From Bacillales bacterium UBA5578 (GTDB lineage: Bacteria; Bacillota_I; Bacilli_A; RF39; UBA660): a stretch of DNA of 64,000 nucleotides. Made by a program: the position numbers. The stretch is from NCBI GenBank assembly GCA_002425325.1, contig DIMA01000006.1:1-64000 (forward strand), written 5' to 3'. Positions 1-6,000 of the stretch are shown here, in pieces. Numbering within the stretch: position 1 is the stretch's first letter; each line of letters opens with the position of its first letter.

Positions 1-3000
1 CAGTTGATATTAGTTTTATTTTCGTTCATATTATCCACTTCCTTAAAATTTCAATCTATTTGATTATACCATAAAAAGTGTATTTTTTTAATAACCTATC
101 AAATTTTTATACCATTTATTTTGGAGTTAGATAAATCAACATCAATCTTTAATATATAGTTACCAGGTCATATGGCATTTCATATATAATAAAAAAGAAT
201 AGACATTTTATTTCTATCTACTCTACAAATTGTAATTTATATTACTTTTTAAATACCTTAACAGCATAGCTTAAACCAAAACCAATCATAGCGCAAACAA
301 ACATTAATATAGAATTATCAAAACCAATACCTAATGCACTACCTATAATAAAACCAGCAACAATTAACCAATCTGTTTCATCATCATTATCATGTTCTAT
401 CTCAATACCTAATGCTTCATCAATAGAAAATTGCAATAAAATAGCCAATTTTTTTAAACTATCAATATCAGGTATAGTTTCTCCTGTTTCCCACTTTGAA
501 ACAGTCTGTCTAGCAACTCCTAATTCTTCAGCAAGCTGTTCTTGTGTCATATTATACTCTTTTCTTTTTTCTAAAATTATATCTTTTAACATTAAATTTT
601 CCTCCCTCAATAGAAATTATATATTTTATATAAATTTCAATCCACCATTTAAGAGTGGAATCTTCGCACTTAGATTTAACATTTACACAAATTACTATTT
701 ATATGTCTATTTAATTATATCATATTTTTTTAGTATATTTTTCAATGAGGGTTAGCTTGCAACATCACCATAATAAATATATACAAAAAAAAAGCACTAT
801 TTTTGGTGTTTCTAGATGTTTTTTACTAAAGTGGAAGTGTTTTTTACTAAAAAGATGTAAAATTTAATTTCTATTTTTTGCTTATTTTATAAGGATTTCC
901 AGGAGGGGTTAGATAAAACAAACTCAAGCAGTTAATTACACTTCTATTATAACCATTAACATTATCTGTTTTTGACATAATATCACTTCCTTCTTTTATA
1001 ATCTAAGACTAACTGCCTAGCATAATGTTCTTGCGGACAAGTATCTAAATTAACGCCTTCTTTCAAACAGCCATCTTCATCATATATTTCTTCACATTCT
1101 TCACTCATAAAATTTCCAAGATCATAACCTTGCAAATACATATCTAAATATGAAATTAAATCCTCTTTTTTTATTTTATCATATAACTGTGAAATAATTT
1201 CATCATGGTCACTTGGCATATCTGCAAAACCATCTGCCCAACCAGTATCACCAAATCCATCGTTTAATTTGCCTATCATATTTATGTAATTGCGTTTAAC
1301 CATAACATCACCTACTTTTAATAATGGAGGATGTGGCACATCGTTATTTACCAGTTAATTACACTTCCATTATAACCATTAACATTATCTGCTTTTTGAC
1401 ATAATATCACTTCTAATTCCTTCACATTATAACATAAAAGAGTAGATTTTTCATCTACCCAATAAATTGTAATTTGTTATTTATTTTGTTTTATTAACAT
1501 TATTCCTAATATTAATGTGATCACAATAATCAAAAGCGGAGCTACTTTAAAAAATACCCACTCAAATATATGCCAAAATGTTCCAATAACAGCCCATTCC
1601 GGATTACTAAAATCCCACGATAAATAAGGACTTCCTAATACAGCTAATAATATAAATAACAATATTAAGCATATATCTACAATTAATAAAAGATTTATAA
1701 TTCTTTTTCTTTTTTGTTTTTGATGCATTGATAATTGCTCATTAATAACTTCTAATTTTTCAGATATTACTTTTAAATCATTTTTTTCTTTTTCTTCTAT
1801 ATTTTCACCAAGAATTTCACTAACTGGTGTTTCATAAATTTCTGATATTGTTATTAACATTTCTGCATCTGGAACAGATAACCATGATTCCCACTTTGAG
1901 ACAGTTTGTCTTACTACATGTAATTTAATACTTAATTCTTCTTGTGAAAGTCCTTTATTTTTTCTTAATGTTTTTAAATTATCTTTTAACATATTACACT
2001 TCTCCTTTCATCAAGTTCAGTTTATTACAAATATTCCGTTGCTACAAGCAATGTATTTTAACATATCATTTAATTATAATTTATCTACTTTTATTATCAT
2101 ATGAATTTGCTCTTTTTTTTAATCTTAAAACTAAGTTGTCATTTGATTTATTTAAATTGTTTTTTTGCTTGCAAAGATCCAAATAATTATTCATTAATGC
2201 AATTAAACCAATTCCAACACCCGAACCTAGTAAATAAGAAGATGCAACATCTAGATTAAATATATTTGAAGTAAAATTTAGTTCATTAGCAATTATTGCT
2301 AAAACAATAAATACAAATGATAAAGTAAAAGCTGAATTACTTTTTTTGATTCTCTTTATTTCTTCAATAGTATTATATTCTAACAAATTATCTATAGTAA
2401 TTTTTAATTCTTCTAATTCTTCTTTATTAAGTTTTCTACCATTTAATAATTCGGCAACACTAATATCTAATTCGCTTGCTACTACTTTTATTAAACTTAA
2501 ATCTGGTAACCTTCTACCATTTTCCCAATTTGAAATTGCTCTATCAGTTACACCTATTTTATCAGCTAACTCTTGTTGTGTCATATTTTTTTCTTTTCTT
2601 AATTCAGCAATAAATTTTCCTATTTGTTCTTGATTCATAATTATCCCTCTTTTCATAAATAATCATATCAAGTTTCTTATAAAAAGTAACCAAACAAAGT
2701 GTGGAGTTAAACAAATTACTATTTAATTAACTTTTCAAATGAATCTGCATTTAATATTGTATTAGATATAAATTCACCTTTATAGAAATTAGCCCAATTA
2801 TTAAAAATACAAGGTACATTTTTTTCTTTTTCTATAAATAATTGCTACTAATATTAAAACAATTAATGACACTAAGAATATAGAAACACTAAATATTATA
2901 TTATCTCCGGTCTCTGGAACAGGTTCAGGTATTTTTGATGATTCTTCACCTTCACTTATTTCATTTGGTTCCCATTGAGCATAATATGTAGAATCTTTAT

Positions 3001-6000
3001 CTATTCCAGATTCATTTAATATCATTTCAAATTTTGTTCCACCGTTTTTTTCTGTATAATATCCAATAAATTTATATCCATCTCTAGAAGGTATTGATAA
3101 AGTATCGTAAAGAGACGGATTCCAATCATTAATTGTATATGTTGTACTAGATTCAAATAATCCTCCATTAGCATCAAATATTACTTTAATAATATAATCT
3201 AAATCAATTGTATTATTTGATTGAATATTATAATCAGCTAATGTACGACCATCTATTAATTCTATACCATTAAAAAATAATTTTTGTTTTTCTGGTAATA
3301 CATTATTTTTATCATATATTTTTTGTTTTAAAGCTTCAATTGTATCACTTGATTCTACTTCTAATAATAATTCATTAGATGATATATCTTTTATCTTAAT
3401 TTGCATAGCTGATACATCAAAAGGAATTATTATCATCATAGTAATAATAATTAATAATATAATTTTATTTTTCATATATACCTCCCATAATTAATCTTTA
3501 TAATTAACATATATATCTATATCTGATACTTCTTTTAAATGTTTATAATATTTTATTTTTACTAATTTATATCTTTTATTATGTCTTACTTTAGATCTAG
3601 CATCACTAGTAATTTTTAATTTAGTTCTTTTACCATCTATATATCCAATAATATATGTATAATGATTTCTATTTATACGTCTTTTCTTAACAATAGAATC
3701 AGTCATATATACTTCTTTTTGCCCTATTTTAATATCTTTATAGTATATAGCAGCGTTACTTATTACAATAGTTTCTATTAATAAAAATATTAATACTAAA
3801 ATTATAAATACTACTTTATATCTTGTTATAAATTTTTTTAAACAGTCAATTTTATTTTTATTTTTAGTTATTAATAAAAATATTATAATTGGGATTAAAA
3901 TAATTAGAATACTAACAAATATTAAGAAGGATAATCCCATTAATAAATATCCATCATTTGAAGATAATAATAATCCTAATAAGATTGCTAATAAAGCTGG
4001 AATTATTATTACTAATACAGGTATTAACAATAATAATAAAATTATTAATAATTTATTTTTTTTATTCATATTAACCTCATTAATGATGATGATGGTGATG
4101 ATGTGTACTAGTTGGAGTATTTATATTACATTGTTCAAAATCACATTCTTCATCTTTATCTTCAAATTCTATAGTTGTATGAACTATATTATGTTCTTTT
4201 AATTCTTCTTTTATTTTATATTTTAAATCTTTTGATATAGTCTCTACTATTACATGCATAGTAGCATAATTATTGAATCCATCTATACTACGTATATGTA
4301 TATGATGAACATCAATAACTCCATCTATTTCTAATAAATGTTCTTTTATTTCATCAATATCTATATTACTAGGTTTCTTTTCTAAAAAGATATCTATTAT
4401 TTCTTTTAATGTTTTTATTGAATTAATTAGAATAAATAAAGCAACTATAATAGATAAAATAGGATCTATAATTTTTATGTCAGTAAATAACATTACAATT
4501 GCACCTACTAATACAATAACCCAACTTAATACATCTTCTAACATATGTAAGTTAACTGACTTTTGATTTAATGAATCTCCATCTTTAGTAAAATATGCTG
4601 CTATAAAATTAATTATAAAACCTAATATTGCTAAAACAATCATTCCATTATAATTTATATCTACTGGATTAAATATTCTTTCAATAGCGTTATATATAAC
4701 TAAAATAGATCCTACAAATAATATAAAAGTAGTTATTATACTTCCTAATACAGAATATCTTGTATAACCATATGTATAATTATTATCTGGTTTCTTTTTA
4801 CTTTTCTTTTCTAAAAAATAAGATATACCTATACTAATAGCATCTCCCATATCATGTACAGAATCTGATACAATAGCGACACTATTAGTTAATGTTCCAC
4901 CTATAAATTCTACAATTGAAAATAATAAATTTAATACAAATGCAACTAATATATTTTTTTCTGTTCTCATATTATTCTCCTATCTAATAAAATTATAACA
5001 TAAAAAAAAGTAAATTATTAAGATTTACTTTTTTTCTTTTTCTTATCTTCATACATTTTCTTATCAGCATTTTTAAATGCTTTATTAAAATCTATTTTAT
5101 CAGTTACTATTTCAAATCCAATAGCTATTGCAATATTATATTCTTTAGTACTATTTTTATTAATTCTTGTAATATCTTTTTCAATAGATTTTATTAAATT
5201 TTTAATTTCTGTTCTATTAGATATATGAGTTAAAAAAACAAATTCATCTCCACCAATACGATAACATTTTCCATGTTTATCTAAATTATCTCTAATTATA
5301 TTGGCAGCATCTATAATTAGACAATCTCCTTCACCATGTCCATAAGTATCATTAATTACTTTTAAATCATTTACATCAAATACTATTATAGCACCTGTTT
5401 TTTCTTTTTCTAATCTATCCATTTCTTCAATAAATGATGTTCTATTTAATAAATCAGTTAAACCATCTCTATATGCTAATTTACTAAGGAAGTCTACTTT
5501 ATTTTCTCTTTCATATCTTCTATAGTATTCAAATATATATCCTACAGCTTCAATTATTAAGAATAATAAAGCACCCATTCTTGTAAATAATGATGATTCA
5601 ACAGAAACACCATAATGAATAGTTAATATATCTATTATTACAAATAAACATACCAATAATAATCCAAATGTGTGTCTTAATTCTTTTTTATCGCCTATTA
5701 CAAATGATTTAATACAAACATAGATGATATAAATAATACCAAGTATATACGTACTATGTGTTATTTTAATAGATGAATGATAATCTAATATTCCAAATAA
5801 ATTTAATAAGTAATTAATTACAAAATTTAGTAATGCTAATATAGATAAACTATTTACTATTATCCTATTACTTGATTTTCTATATGTATGTCCTATATAT
5901 AACATTAATGGTAACATAATTAATAACATTAATATTTCAGAAATCATATGGAAATAGTATGCTCTACCAAATACTAATTGAAATATTTTTGAATCAAATA

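What a model noticed while it worked through the whole genome (the two positions that open the first line are those of the whole stretch)
2801..3475. Sortase-anchored surface protein with a eukaryote-like ubiquitin domain
g00951 is signal peptide - ubiquitin - InlB B-repeat (Flg_new) - VPETG sorting motif - membrane helix - basic tail: a ubiquitin displayed on the cell wall. The ubiquitin starts exactly at the signal-peptidase site and lacks the Gly-Gly end. The same build recurs, patchily, in other RF39 genera.
Evidence so far: Pfam ubiquitin E 2.6e-19 at 26-92 and Flg_new at 97-167. Ubiquitin hits in 11 of 401 order genomes, 10 genera; five relatives' proteins read in full have the same parts with NPxT motifs. 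Identity to a plant ubiquitin unit is 37 of 76 here and 34-63 of 76 in relatives. The gene lies inside a 94-kb bacterial contig; a 98% identical copy lies on another 31-kb contig. The genome has several sortases.
(Added by a program. Inside this text positions count along the whole contig: contig position 1 is position 1 of the stretch shown here. "Call 12" and the like, gene names such as g00115 and contig names such as C1 are that model's own, and its searches are not shown. The text may have been shortened before it was handed on; [...] marks where a part breaks off. The agent that wrote the report below was given it as the finding of a first reader that could run no searches.)

Follow-up and report, generated by a model that had tools for sequence, protein, structure and literature searches.

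The report
Cell-wall ubiquitin with a repurposed tip
A gut bacterium carries an intact gene for a protein, predicted to be exported and likely fixed to the cell wall, whose outer end is a eukaryote-type ubiquitin lacking the tail used for tagging proteins; it and its relatives conserve the opposite end of ubiquitin instead, which likely binds something outside the cell, possibly a metal ion.

Summary
Confirmed: 2801-3475(-) encodes signal peptide, ubiquitin, InlB B-repeat, VPETG, membrane helix and basic tail. It is a resident bacterial gene: one independent contig spans it, codon use is host-like, and 0 of 19 congeners carry the ubiquitin part. Sortase anchoring is likely; three related loci sit beside a class B-type sortase, and the genome makes peptidoglycan. 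The build is not confined to this order: signal-ubiquitin heads occur on SLH, dockerin, IPTL-CTERM and LPxTG scaffolds across phyla. The scan found this class before on other DNA; my paper searches found only the unanchored Bacteroides BfUbb/BoUbb. Two additions. The family's heads have at least two origins (AU p=0.0005), one parabasalid-like; this copy's donor is unresolved. Selection is inverted: exported heads change at the Ile44/Arg42/Arg72 side and keep the Met1-Glu16-Glu18-Asp21-Lys29-Asp58 pole (distal/proximal ratio 0.25, against 2.78 in Gly-Gly ubiquitins and 0.92 in diverged repeats). So it is unlikely to mimic ubiquitin tagging. It likely binds a ligand at the free Met1 pole, which holds ubiquitin's known Cu/Cd sites. 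Ligand, anchoring and expression are untested, and fold stability is a live rival.

The parts
3481..3486 (-). Ribosome-binding site GGGAGG, 5 nt before the ATG
   Evidence: sequence
3407..3475 (-). Predicted Sec signal peptide, residues 1-23 (MKNK, hydrophobic core, V-S-A cleavage site)
   Evidence: sequence; same position and Ala before Met1 in all 8 rows of alignment A2; no signal-peptide predictor was available
3191..3406 (-). Ubiquitin head, residues 24-95 (ubiquitin positions 1-72); keeps M1, E16, E18, S20, D21, T22, K29, G53, R54, T55, D58; has lost L8, R42, I44, K48, K63, H68, V70, R72 and Gly-Gly
   Evidence: PF00240; model pLDDT 81-92 over this part; rmsd 0.5-0.9 A to single ubiquitin chains; residue map
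2969..3187 (-). InlB B-repeat / Flg_new spacer domain, residues 97-169
   Evidence: PF09479, TIGR02543 over cut-off, internalin B B-repeat 2y5p E 0.0023
2921..2968 (-). Acidic, proline-rich linker, residues 170-185
   Evidence: sequence; pLDDT under 50 for 174-191
2906..2920 (-). Sorting motif VPETG, residues 186-190 (VPDTG in P0003; NPxT[F/L/N/S] in most relatives)
   Evidence: P, T and the following D invariant in A2
2834..2899 (-). Membrane helix, residues 193-214
   Evidence: mean hydropathy 3.38 over the best 17 residues; helix 191-219 in the model
2801..2833 (-). Basic tail RKRKK, five further residues and stop; the four other cluster members end at residue 220
3491..4970 (-). Two co-oriented upstream genes (192-aa membrane protein without family; CDF metal transporter), 10-15 nt apart, possibly one operon with the ubiquitin gene; not conserved beside relatives
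   Evidence: promoter-like site 5021-4992 not above chance; neighbour scan

Best explanation
The gene encodes a protein predicted to be exported and likely tied to peptidoglycan by a sortase, holding a eukaryote-type ubiquitin domain, which lacks the Gly-Gly end, at its outer tip, where it likely works as a binding module through its free Met1 pole rather than as a tag. Shown: the domain order, the loss of Gly-Gly and of the Ile44 patch, and the conservation of the Met1 pole in this copy and its relatives. Inferred steps: (1) signal peptidase cuts after V-S-A and frees the amine of Met1; (2) the membrane helix and basic tail hold the protein until a sortase cuts VPET|G and links it to the wall; (3) the B-repeat is a spacer; (4) the acidic pole M1/E16/E18/S20/D21/T22/K29/G53/R54/T55/D58 points away from the cell and binds an outside ligand. 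My best single guess for the ligand is a divalent metal ion, because M1/E16 and E18/D21/K29 are ubiquitin's described Cu(II) and Cd(II) ligands; a protein ligand on the same face is about as likely. Odds: wall display 0.85; a ligand bound at the Met1 pole 0.55; that ligand a metal about 0.2 overall. The head came from a eukaryote or its virus long ago and moves between gut bacteria, in one lineage together with a class B sortase gene.
For: Real gene: one contig of run X9 covers 2822-3569 with 6 differences; X7 covers 2821-3275 and X3 3209-3743. GC3 of the head is 2.8% against 9.3 +/- 2.8% in 766 long ORFs. Anchoring: 5 Mur-ligase, 5 transpeptidase and 3 MraY-family matches; 2 class B sortases over the cut-off and 2 unclassified ones, the latter directly after genes ending VPNTG and IPDTG. 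A sortase gene abuts the ubiquitin gene in L001, L003 and L270: 169.4, 152.6 and 165.8 bits against the class B cut-off of 153.75. The head is the cargo: P0149, P0150, P0160 and P0172 are only signal, ubiquitin, [I/L]PETG, helix and tail. Met1 follows the signal in 70 of 72 exported heads; LRGG is kept in 7 of 72. Inverted conservation: substitution rate at 16 distal against 14 proximal positions is 0.112/0.456 in 29 exported heads not found by motif patterns, 0.109/0.039 in 182 LRGG-ending units, 0.553/0.600 in 751 diverged repeat units; 0 of 2000 identity-matched draws were as low. On a tree the distal sites need 3.06 changes each, the proximal 10.29, the core 2.39, the five metal ligands 1.4. 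An 11-head held-out set gives 0.35. In the three most diverged type A heads, this one included, the D58 patch is 0.92 conserved against 0.46 in matched controls. Metal sites: Cu(II) binds Met1 nitrogen and oxygens of residues 16-18 at 0.1 micromolar (PMC2737635); Cd(II) binds Met1/Glu16 and Glu18/Asp21/Lys29 (PMC2804574).
Against: No ligand, anchoring or expression is shown. The two surface sets were drawn after seeing and from recalled ubiquitin structure, not from coordinates. The heads are related, so 29 rows are not 29 events. A free N-terminus alone explains part of the pattern: Glu16 and Glu18 lie near the Met1 amine (PMC5333110), and 21 N-terminal control units keep E16 at 0.76 and E18 at 0.52 against 0.46 and 0.32 in 623 internal ones. 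The proximal face may simply be masked by the stalk. For this copy dN/dS is uninformative to high (0.38-1.04 in its 6 pairs, with AT-biased, partly saturated synonymous sites), against 0.13-0.19 among near-canonical type A heads of different loci, so it may be drifting. P0003 has Q62K on the 'conserved' pole. Metal reading: none of 107 neighbour ORFs from 33 related loci is a named metal transporter; G53, R54, T55 and D58 are conserved but are not among the ligands cited; L274 has lost Met1. The LPXTG anchor model TIGR01167 does not hit P0001, and two other anchor models stay under their cut-offs. No sortase gene lies beside this copy.
Confidence: 0.5

Rival explanations
1. The head is only a small, very stable cap or spacer. 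The Met1 pole is conserved because it holds the free N-terminus and the fold; no ligand is involved.
For: Core positions are as conserved as the distal pole (0.113 against 0.112). N-terminal control units keep E16 and E18 better than internal ones. Met1 makes two key hydrogen bonds (PMC2737635). Neighbours show no shared pathway.
Against: The ratio stays at 0.20-0.34 when M1, E16, E18 and positions 70-72 are left out. G53 and R54 are kept in 25 and 26 of 29 exported heads but in only 0.24 and 0.38 of N-terminal control units. Minimal proteins have nothing to cap. dN/dS of 0.02-0.14 in near-canonical pairs is tighter than in the B-repeat (0.22-0.93).
Confidence: 0.22
2. Classical ubiquitin mimicry: a decoy for host or protist ubiquitin receptors, deubiquitinases or E1, or an immune disguise.
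For: Many bacterial heads elsewhere are 81-89% identical to the L001 head and near-canonical; 7 of 72 keep LRGG. Type B heads group with parabasalid-type units. BfUbb cross-reacts with anti-ubiquitin antibodies and binds E1 (PMC3352274).
Against: The faces these proteins read (recalled: L8/I44/H68/V70, R42/R72, the tail) change fastest: R42 in 17, V70 in 19, R72 in 20 of 29 heads. All five Ile44-patch residues differ in this copy. Heads also occur in organisms not known as gut residents, such as Pedobacter, Dyella and Conexibacter.
Confidence: 0.1
3. A BfUbb-like antibacterial: the head is shed, or presented on contact, and inhibits a protein of competing bacteria.
For: Same export logic as BfUbb, with cleavage exactly at Met1 and no terminal glycine (PMC5705921). 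Patchy, mobile, strain-level distribution. Stand-alone secreted forms exist, four in tandem in L025.
Against: BfUbb and BoUbb need a C-terminal disulfide and TonB-dependent uptake (PMC11467351). This head has no cysteine, and its C-terminus runs straight into the B-repeat with no linker or Gly-Gly for release.
Confidence: 0.1
4. This copy is a decaying or purely membrane-held remnant, or an assembly chimera.
For: 37 of 72 identity, long branch, dN/dS not clearly under 1 for this copy, frameshifted relative in G337, no conclusive RNA cover.
Against: Open frame in 5 of 5 cluster members. An independent contig spans the gene. Substitutions avoid the core and the Met1 pole. Confident ubiquitin fold.
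Confidence: 0.08

Closest known systems
BfUbb / BoUbb, secreted ubiquitin homologues of Bacteroides fragilis and B. ovatus (PMC3352274, PMC5705921, PMC11467351)
   Same: Eukaryote-type ubiquitin sequence in a gut bacterium; signal peptide cut exactly at ubiquitin Met1; no terminal Gly-Gly; patchy among strains; horizontal origin.
   Different: BfUbb is a free, diffusible antibacterial with a C-terminal disulfide, taken up by ButCD and aimed at a periplasmic PPIase. This protein is fused to a B-repeat and a wall-sorting signal, has no cysteine in the head, and lies in a monoderm host.
Eukaryotic ubiquitin (PF00240)
   Same: Fold (rmsd 0.5-0.9 A) and about half of the sequence.
   Different: No LRGG, Ile44 patch lost, K11/K48/K63 lost, exported, no E2 or JAB found in the genome; the conservation pattern is reversed.
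Sortase-anchored proteins with InlB B-repeats (PF09479, TIGR02543); class B sortase substrates
   Same: Signal, B-repeat spacer, pentapeptide, helix, basic tail; relatives carry NPxT motifs next to class B-type sortase genes.
   Different: The distal domain is ubiquitin rather than LRR or NEAT (recalled). This copy has VPETG, like the host's own VPNTG and IPDTG proteins, and no adjacent sortase.
Secreted ubiquitin-extension effectors of plant-parasitic nematodes (as described in PMC5705921, Discussion)
   Same: Signal peptide followed by ubiquitin and a C-terminal extension.
   Different: Eukaryotic, cleaved inside the host cell to release a peptide; not anchored.
Bacterial ubiquitin-like conjugation systems (ThiS/MoaD; BilA as named in PMC11354881; other details recalled)
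   Same: Beta-grasp fold in a bacterium.
   Different: Those are cytoplasmic, lack ubiquitin-level sequence identity, end in Gly-Gly and come with E1-like enzymes; none of this holds here.

Membership tests
Ubiquitin domain family (PF00240) | Score over the curated cut-off and ubiquitin fold | tested here: met
   65.9 bits against 25.4; Foldseek rmsd 0.5-0.9 A, TM by target 0.85-0.97 for single ubiquitin chains
Ubiquitin as a conjugated modifier | C-terminal LRGG, free or releasable | tested here: not met
   positions 70-76 are replaced and run into the B-repeat
Ubiquitin as a conjugated modifier | Intact Ile44 patch (L8, R42, I44, H68, V70) | tested here: not met
   I8, K42, F44, D68, D70; patch definition recalled
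Ubiquitin as a conjugated modifier | E1/E2/deconjugase in the genome | tested here: inconclusive
   no UQ_con (control silent too) and no Prok-JAB match; one 231-aa ThiF protein on another contig; genome 91% complete
BfUbb/BUbb | Signal peptide ending at ubiquitin Met1; no terminal glycine | tested here: met
   V-S-A then Met1; cleavage inferred from pattern
BfUbb/BUbb | Stand-alone, diffusible mature protein | tested here: not met
   129 further residues with B-repeat, sorting motif and membrane helix
BfUbb/BUbb | C-terminal disulfide | tested here: not met
   no cysteine in residues 24-219; feature from PMC11467351
BfUbb/BUbb | Antibacterial activity through PPIase binding | not testable with these tools
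   needs an assay
Sortase substrate (cell-wall sorting signal) | Export signal, hydrophobic helix, basic tail | tested here: met
Sortase substrate (cell-wall sorting signal) | LPxTG-type pentapeptide before the helix | tested here: inconclusive
   VPETG; P, T, D invariant in 8 aligned rows; like VPNTG and IPDTG beside the host's sortases; but TIGR01167 no hit, NF053819 and NF033073 under cut-off
Sortase substrate (cell-wall sorting signal) | Sortase and peptidoglycan in the host | tested here: met
Sortase substrate (cell-wall sorting signal) | Covalent attachment to the wall | not testable with these tools
   needs fractionation or an in vitro sortase assay
InlB B-repeat (Flg_new) | Profile score over cut-off | tested here: met
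   PF09479 35.2 against 27; TIGR02543 24.8 against 20.95
Bacterial Ubl conjugation operons | E1, E2 or JAB genes beside the Ubl | tested here: not met
   none among 18 other window ORFs up to 15.3 kb or 107 neighbour ORFs of relatives

The most novel reading that the evidence does not exclude
Bacteria of many phyla have repeatedly captured eukaryotic ubiquitin and turned it upside down: tethered by its former business end, it displays the Met1-Glu16-Glu18-Asp21-Lys29 pole, freed by signal peptidase, as a cell-surface metal-binding (Cu/Zn) or receptor module. This gene is a late stage of that domestication, where almost only the core and that pole still match ubiquitin.
Probability: 0.25. Interest if true: 0.88.

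Novelty: new variant of a known kind. Interest (0 to 1): 0.68.

Why it matters
Papers found here treat eukaryote-type ubiquitin in bacteria as a Bacteroides rarity (the 2018 abstract of PMC6194340 calls B. fragilis the only known case; BoUbb was added in 2024). An anchored form, acquired more than once and spread over phyla, changes that picture. It also gives ubiquitin a role that needs neither its tail nor its Ile44 patch. The reversed conservation names the surface and residues to test, and the protein is small and easy to express, so the function is directly testable. Surface ubiquitin on gut commensals could also bear on anti-ubiquitin antibodies, though this diverged copy is a poor mimic.

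Tried and rejected
Contamination or chimera: rejected. Sequence searches with the whole protein or profile were swamped by polyubiquitins: one search gave only P0003 and P0096 as relatives among the 120 rows shown, and one search gave none among 150 that I could use as relatives, so class size is not counted; the hits were reused as controls. Viral route: P0001 found nothing; 0 of the 80 best viral loci passed my signal-peptide filter, but only 33 of 64 parts were scanned. Metagenome scan covered 8 of 64 parts; 4 of the 6 filter hits among 80 loci look like true exported heads. Expression: one 200-nt contig identical to 2874-3073 in RNA run X14, nothing usable in X15, X17, X18; contigs cannot show transcription, so no claim. 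Mobile-element signs at this locus: no flanking repeats, no terminator, promoter matches under chance. Conserved operon or metal-transport context: not found. Donor of this copy: not resolved; nearest canonical units are 40 of 72 here, and for L001 green-algal, stramenopile and unnamed units tie at 63 of 72. dN/dS for this copy: uninformative. No complex prediction was sent, since no protein partner is claimed. G741 (E 6.6e-4, under cut-off) was not examined; G718 and G904 were not scored.
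Full report
Observation. The ORF at 2801-3475 (-) is 224 aa with a ribosome-binding site. Pfam gives ubiquitin at 26-92 (E 2.8e-18) and Flg_new at 97-167. The best PDB sequence matches are ubiquitins. An AlphaFold model from an 8-row alignment has pLDDT 81-92 over the head and superposes on single ubiquitin chains at 0.5-0.9 A. The head starts at residue 24, right after V-S-A, and has no Gly-Gly. VPETG (186-190), a hydrophobic helix and RKRKK follow.

It is a resident bacterial gene. The 18 other ORFs scanned in the first 15.3 kb are bacterial types or have no family. GC3 of the head is 2.8%, against 9.3 +/- 2.8% for 766 long ORFs of the genome. Of four DNA-type runs laid, X9 has one contig over 2822-3569 with 6 differences, X7 one over 2821-3275, X3 one over 3209-3743, and X2 showed no listed piece over the head. 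The holders are animal gut metagenomes, several from sheep. The protein's 90% cluster has 5 members, all full length; the other four end at residue 220. It is accessory: none of 19 congeners matches the head, and 4 have only weak B-repeat matches.

Anchoring. The genome has Mur ligases, penicillin-binding proteins and MraY-family genes, two class B sortases over the cut-off and two unclassified sortases. The unclassified ones follow pilin-like genes ending VPNTG and IPDTG, so a [V/I]PxTG motif is the local usage. My scan of 1159 ORFs gave 8 motif hits, of which 4 look like true sorting signals, this one included. In three related loci a sortase gene abuts the ubiquitin gene (L001, L003 with its near-copy L012, L270); two pass the class B cut-off and one misses by 1 bit. 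Their motifs are NPKTF and NPQTS. Against: curated anchor models do not pass P0001, and no sortase lies beside this copy.

Distribution. Within the family, 11 of 401 and 11 of 400 genomes match, 16 different genomes in all. In a class sample 4 of 399 scored genomes match, two of them outside the family, one over the cut-off. The head sits on different stalks: Flg_new, Flg_new_2, DUF6273, CBM_X2-like. A scan of 185,579 species genomes gave 541 confirmed stretches, of which I saw the best 80. 38 were contigs of 1241 bases or less, which I set aside as likely contaminants without reading them. Of the other 42, by eye 27 have a signal peptide before the head, 4 a C-terminal sorting tail without a clear signal, and 11 neither (L018 encodes the same protein as L001). 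Anchors include SLH (Paenibacillus), dockerin (Ruminococcus, Clostridia), IPTL-CTERM (Zoogloea, P0201) and LPxTG-like tails; Pedobacter and Dyella have stand-alone secreted forms. Some proteins are only signal, ubiquitin and anchor (P0149, P0150, P0160, P0172), so the head is the cargo. The scan's earlier notes report the same class on other DNA; I use them as leads only.

Origin. Family heads fall in two sequence types. Type B (L004-L006, L271, L272) shares H12, T20, R/K22, N54, Q57, D64, with single exceptions, with metagenomic polyubiquitin and ubiquitin-eL40 sequences. The best single-unit PDB match for L005 is 5xy3_m (116.7 bits, next 103.4), and for the eL40 fusion P0163 the same chain (256 bits, next eL40 197). 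5XY3 is the Trichomonas vaginalis ribosome (PMC6486554). In trees of 86 and 41 rows, type B groups with these units (95/89 and 99/93), and type A, with this gene, lies outside. The AU test rejects one clade for 12 family heads (p 0.0005). Limits: 72 columns, LG+G4 without mixture, long branches meeting at this very gene, L274 left out of the second tree, and the test run after the first tree was seen. The type A donor is unresolved. L003 and L012, from genomes of two genera, share 2008 bases at 99.5% covering sortase and ubiquitin gene. That suggests recent transfer, but both lie at contig ends, so mis-binning is possible.

What is conserved. In seven type A heads M1, E16, V17, E18, D21, T22, I23, E24, A25, K27, K29, G53, R54, T55, L56, D58 and Y59 do not vary. 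The three most diverged (this one, L008, P0096; 32-37 of 72) have lost L8, K11, R42, K48, K63, H68 and R72. I then split exposed positions into a distal set near Met1 (16) and a proximal set near the C-terminus (14), from recalled structure and. Loci found by DNA motif patterns were removed, because those patterns fix distal positions, and so were proteins with frameshifted or cut ends (a list of six). For 29 exported heads under 93% alike the distal/proximal substitution ratio is 0.25; for 182 unique LRGG-ending units 2.78; for 751 diverged repeat units from 86 multi-ubiquitin proteins 0.92; none of 2000 identity-matched draws reached 0.25. Counting changes on a tree (29 heads, L274 out and L042's second head in, plus 3 references) gives 3.06 per distal site, 10.29 per proximal site, 2.39 per core site. 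An 11-head set not used to draw the surfaces gives 0.35, and 0.34 without M1, E16, E18 and 70-72; one of the 11 (L047) was pattern-found. Near-canonical pairs show dN/dS 0.02-0.19, apart from near-identical pairs with 0-1 synonymous changes and saturated pairs that give no value. Pairs with this copy give 0.38-1.04 and say little.

Mechanism. The face that ubiquitin receptors and enzymes read is the one that decays, so tagging and classical mimicry are unlikely. With the C-terminus tied to the stalk, the Met1 pole points outward, and cleavage at A|M frees its amine (70 of 72 exported heads, heuristic signal filter). Ubiquitin binds Cu(II) at the Met1 nitrogen and oxygens of residues 16-18 with 0.1 micromolar affinity (PMC2737635), and Cd(II) at Met1/Glu16 and Glu18/Asp21/Lys29 (PMC2804574). 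These five sites need only 1.4 changes each on the tree. A CDF metal transporter lies two genes upstream on the same strand here, but no named metal transporter is among 107 neighbour ORFs of 33 related loci (the 108 picked less one duplicate). The same residues also surround the free amine (PMC5333110), and N-terminal control units keep E16 and E18 better, so stability explains part of it; it explains G53 and R54 less well. I put wall display at 0.85, a ligand at the Met1 pole at 0.55, and a metal ligand at about 0.2.

Comparison with what is known. It works like neither ubiquitin proper (no LRGG, no Ile44 patch, no E2 or JAB found) nor BfUbb (not stand-alone, no disulfide). It shares BfUbb's export design and is best filed as an anchored variant of exported bacterial ubiquitins. 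Eight topic searches of the held library listed no paper on anchored forms; I read titles and abstract starts of the listed rows only. Seen in more detail: PMC3352274 (abstract, introduction, start of methods); PMC5705921 (passages and the whole Discussion); PMC11467351, PMC2737635, PMC11354881 (passages); PMC6486554, PMC5333110, PMC2804574 (one passage each); PMC6194340 (search listing). Most subscription papers are not held. I opened no supplements; the list of 100 bacterial BfUbb homologues behind PMC11467351 may include anchored forms. Patch names (Ile44, Asp58) and core positions are recalled.

Verdict. Real, intact, probably wall-anchored; a new variant of exported bacterial ubiquitin, undescribed in the papers I could search, with a reversed conservation pattern that points to a testable working surface. 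Interest 0.68.

Noticed in passing
L025:4183-5585 (Pedobacter cryoconitis record): Four tandem genes, each a signal peptide plus a stand-alone ubiquitin without Gly-Gly, diverged from each other (58-67 of 72 identical to canonical units): a diversified BfUbb-like array.
   Followed up: partly
L003:167-2174 and L012:1-2008: Class B-type sortase plus ubiquitin surface gene, 99.5% identical over 2008 bases in genomes of two genera (G037, G156); G156 also has a second, different ubiquitin gene (L002).
   Followed up: partly
L009/L013 (G337:C40:3892-4069): Frameshifted copy at the same place as L002 (same genus); its second frame runs from the B-repeat start into an unrelated hydrolase-like sequence.
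   Followed up: no
L275:641-2137 (-), L276:1405-2049, L277:1366-3078, L274:1384-3201: Barely recognisable ubiquitin-like domains in family surface proteins, one internal and possibly tandem (L275): possible end stages of the same domestication.
   Followed up: partly
L042:4899-6700 and L070:4342-5480: Two adjacent signal-ubiquitin genes with different C-terminal parts in each of two Clostridia-type genomes.
   Followed up: no
window 929-973 and 1352-1396: A 45-nt direct repeat (96% identical) flanks the single family-less ORF 983-1339, as for an inserted cassette.
   Followed up: no
window 4992-5035, 8553-8596, 11148-11191: Similar 44-nt intergenic elements: hairpin with T/A runs next to a TTATAAT -10 box on the minus strand; probably ordinary terminator-promoter junctions.
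   Followed up: no
G000 C6:20240-23645, C25:2-1697, C17:126698-130036 (L014, L015, L017): Three pilin-like surface genes (VPNTG, IPDTG, IPVTA) each directly followed by a sortase gene; the C17 class B sortase has a long N-terminal extension (489-aa frame).
   Followed up: partly
38 of the 80 loci (such as L022, L023, L029-L033): Ubiquitin matches on contigs of 237-1241 bases in bacterial and archaeal assemblies, likely eukaryotic contamination that inflates counts of bacterial ubiquitin.
   Followed up: no
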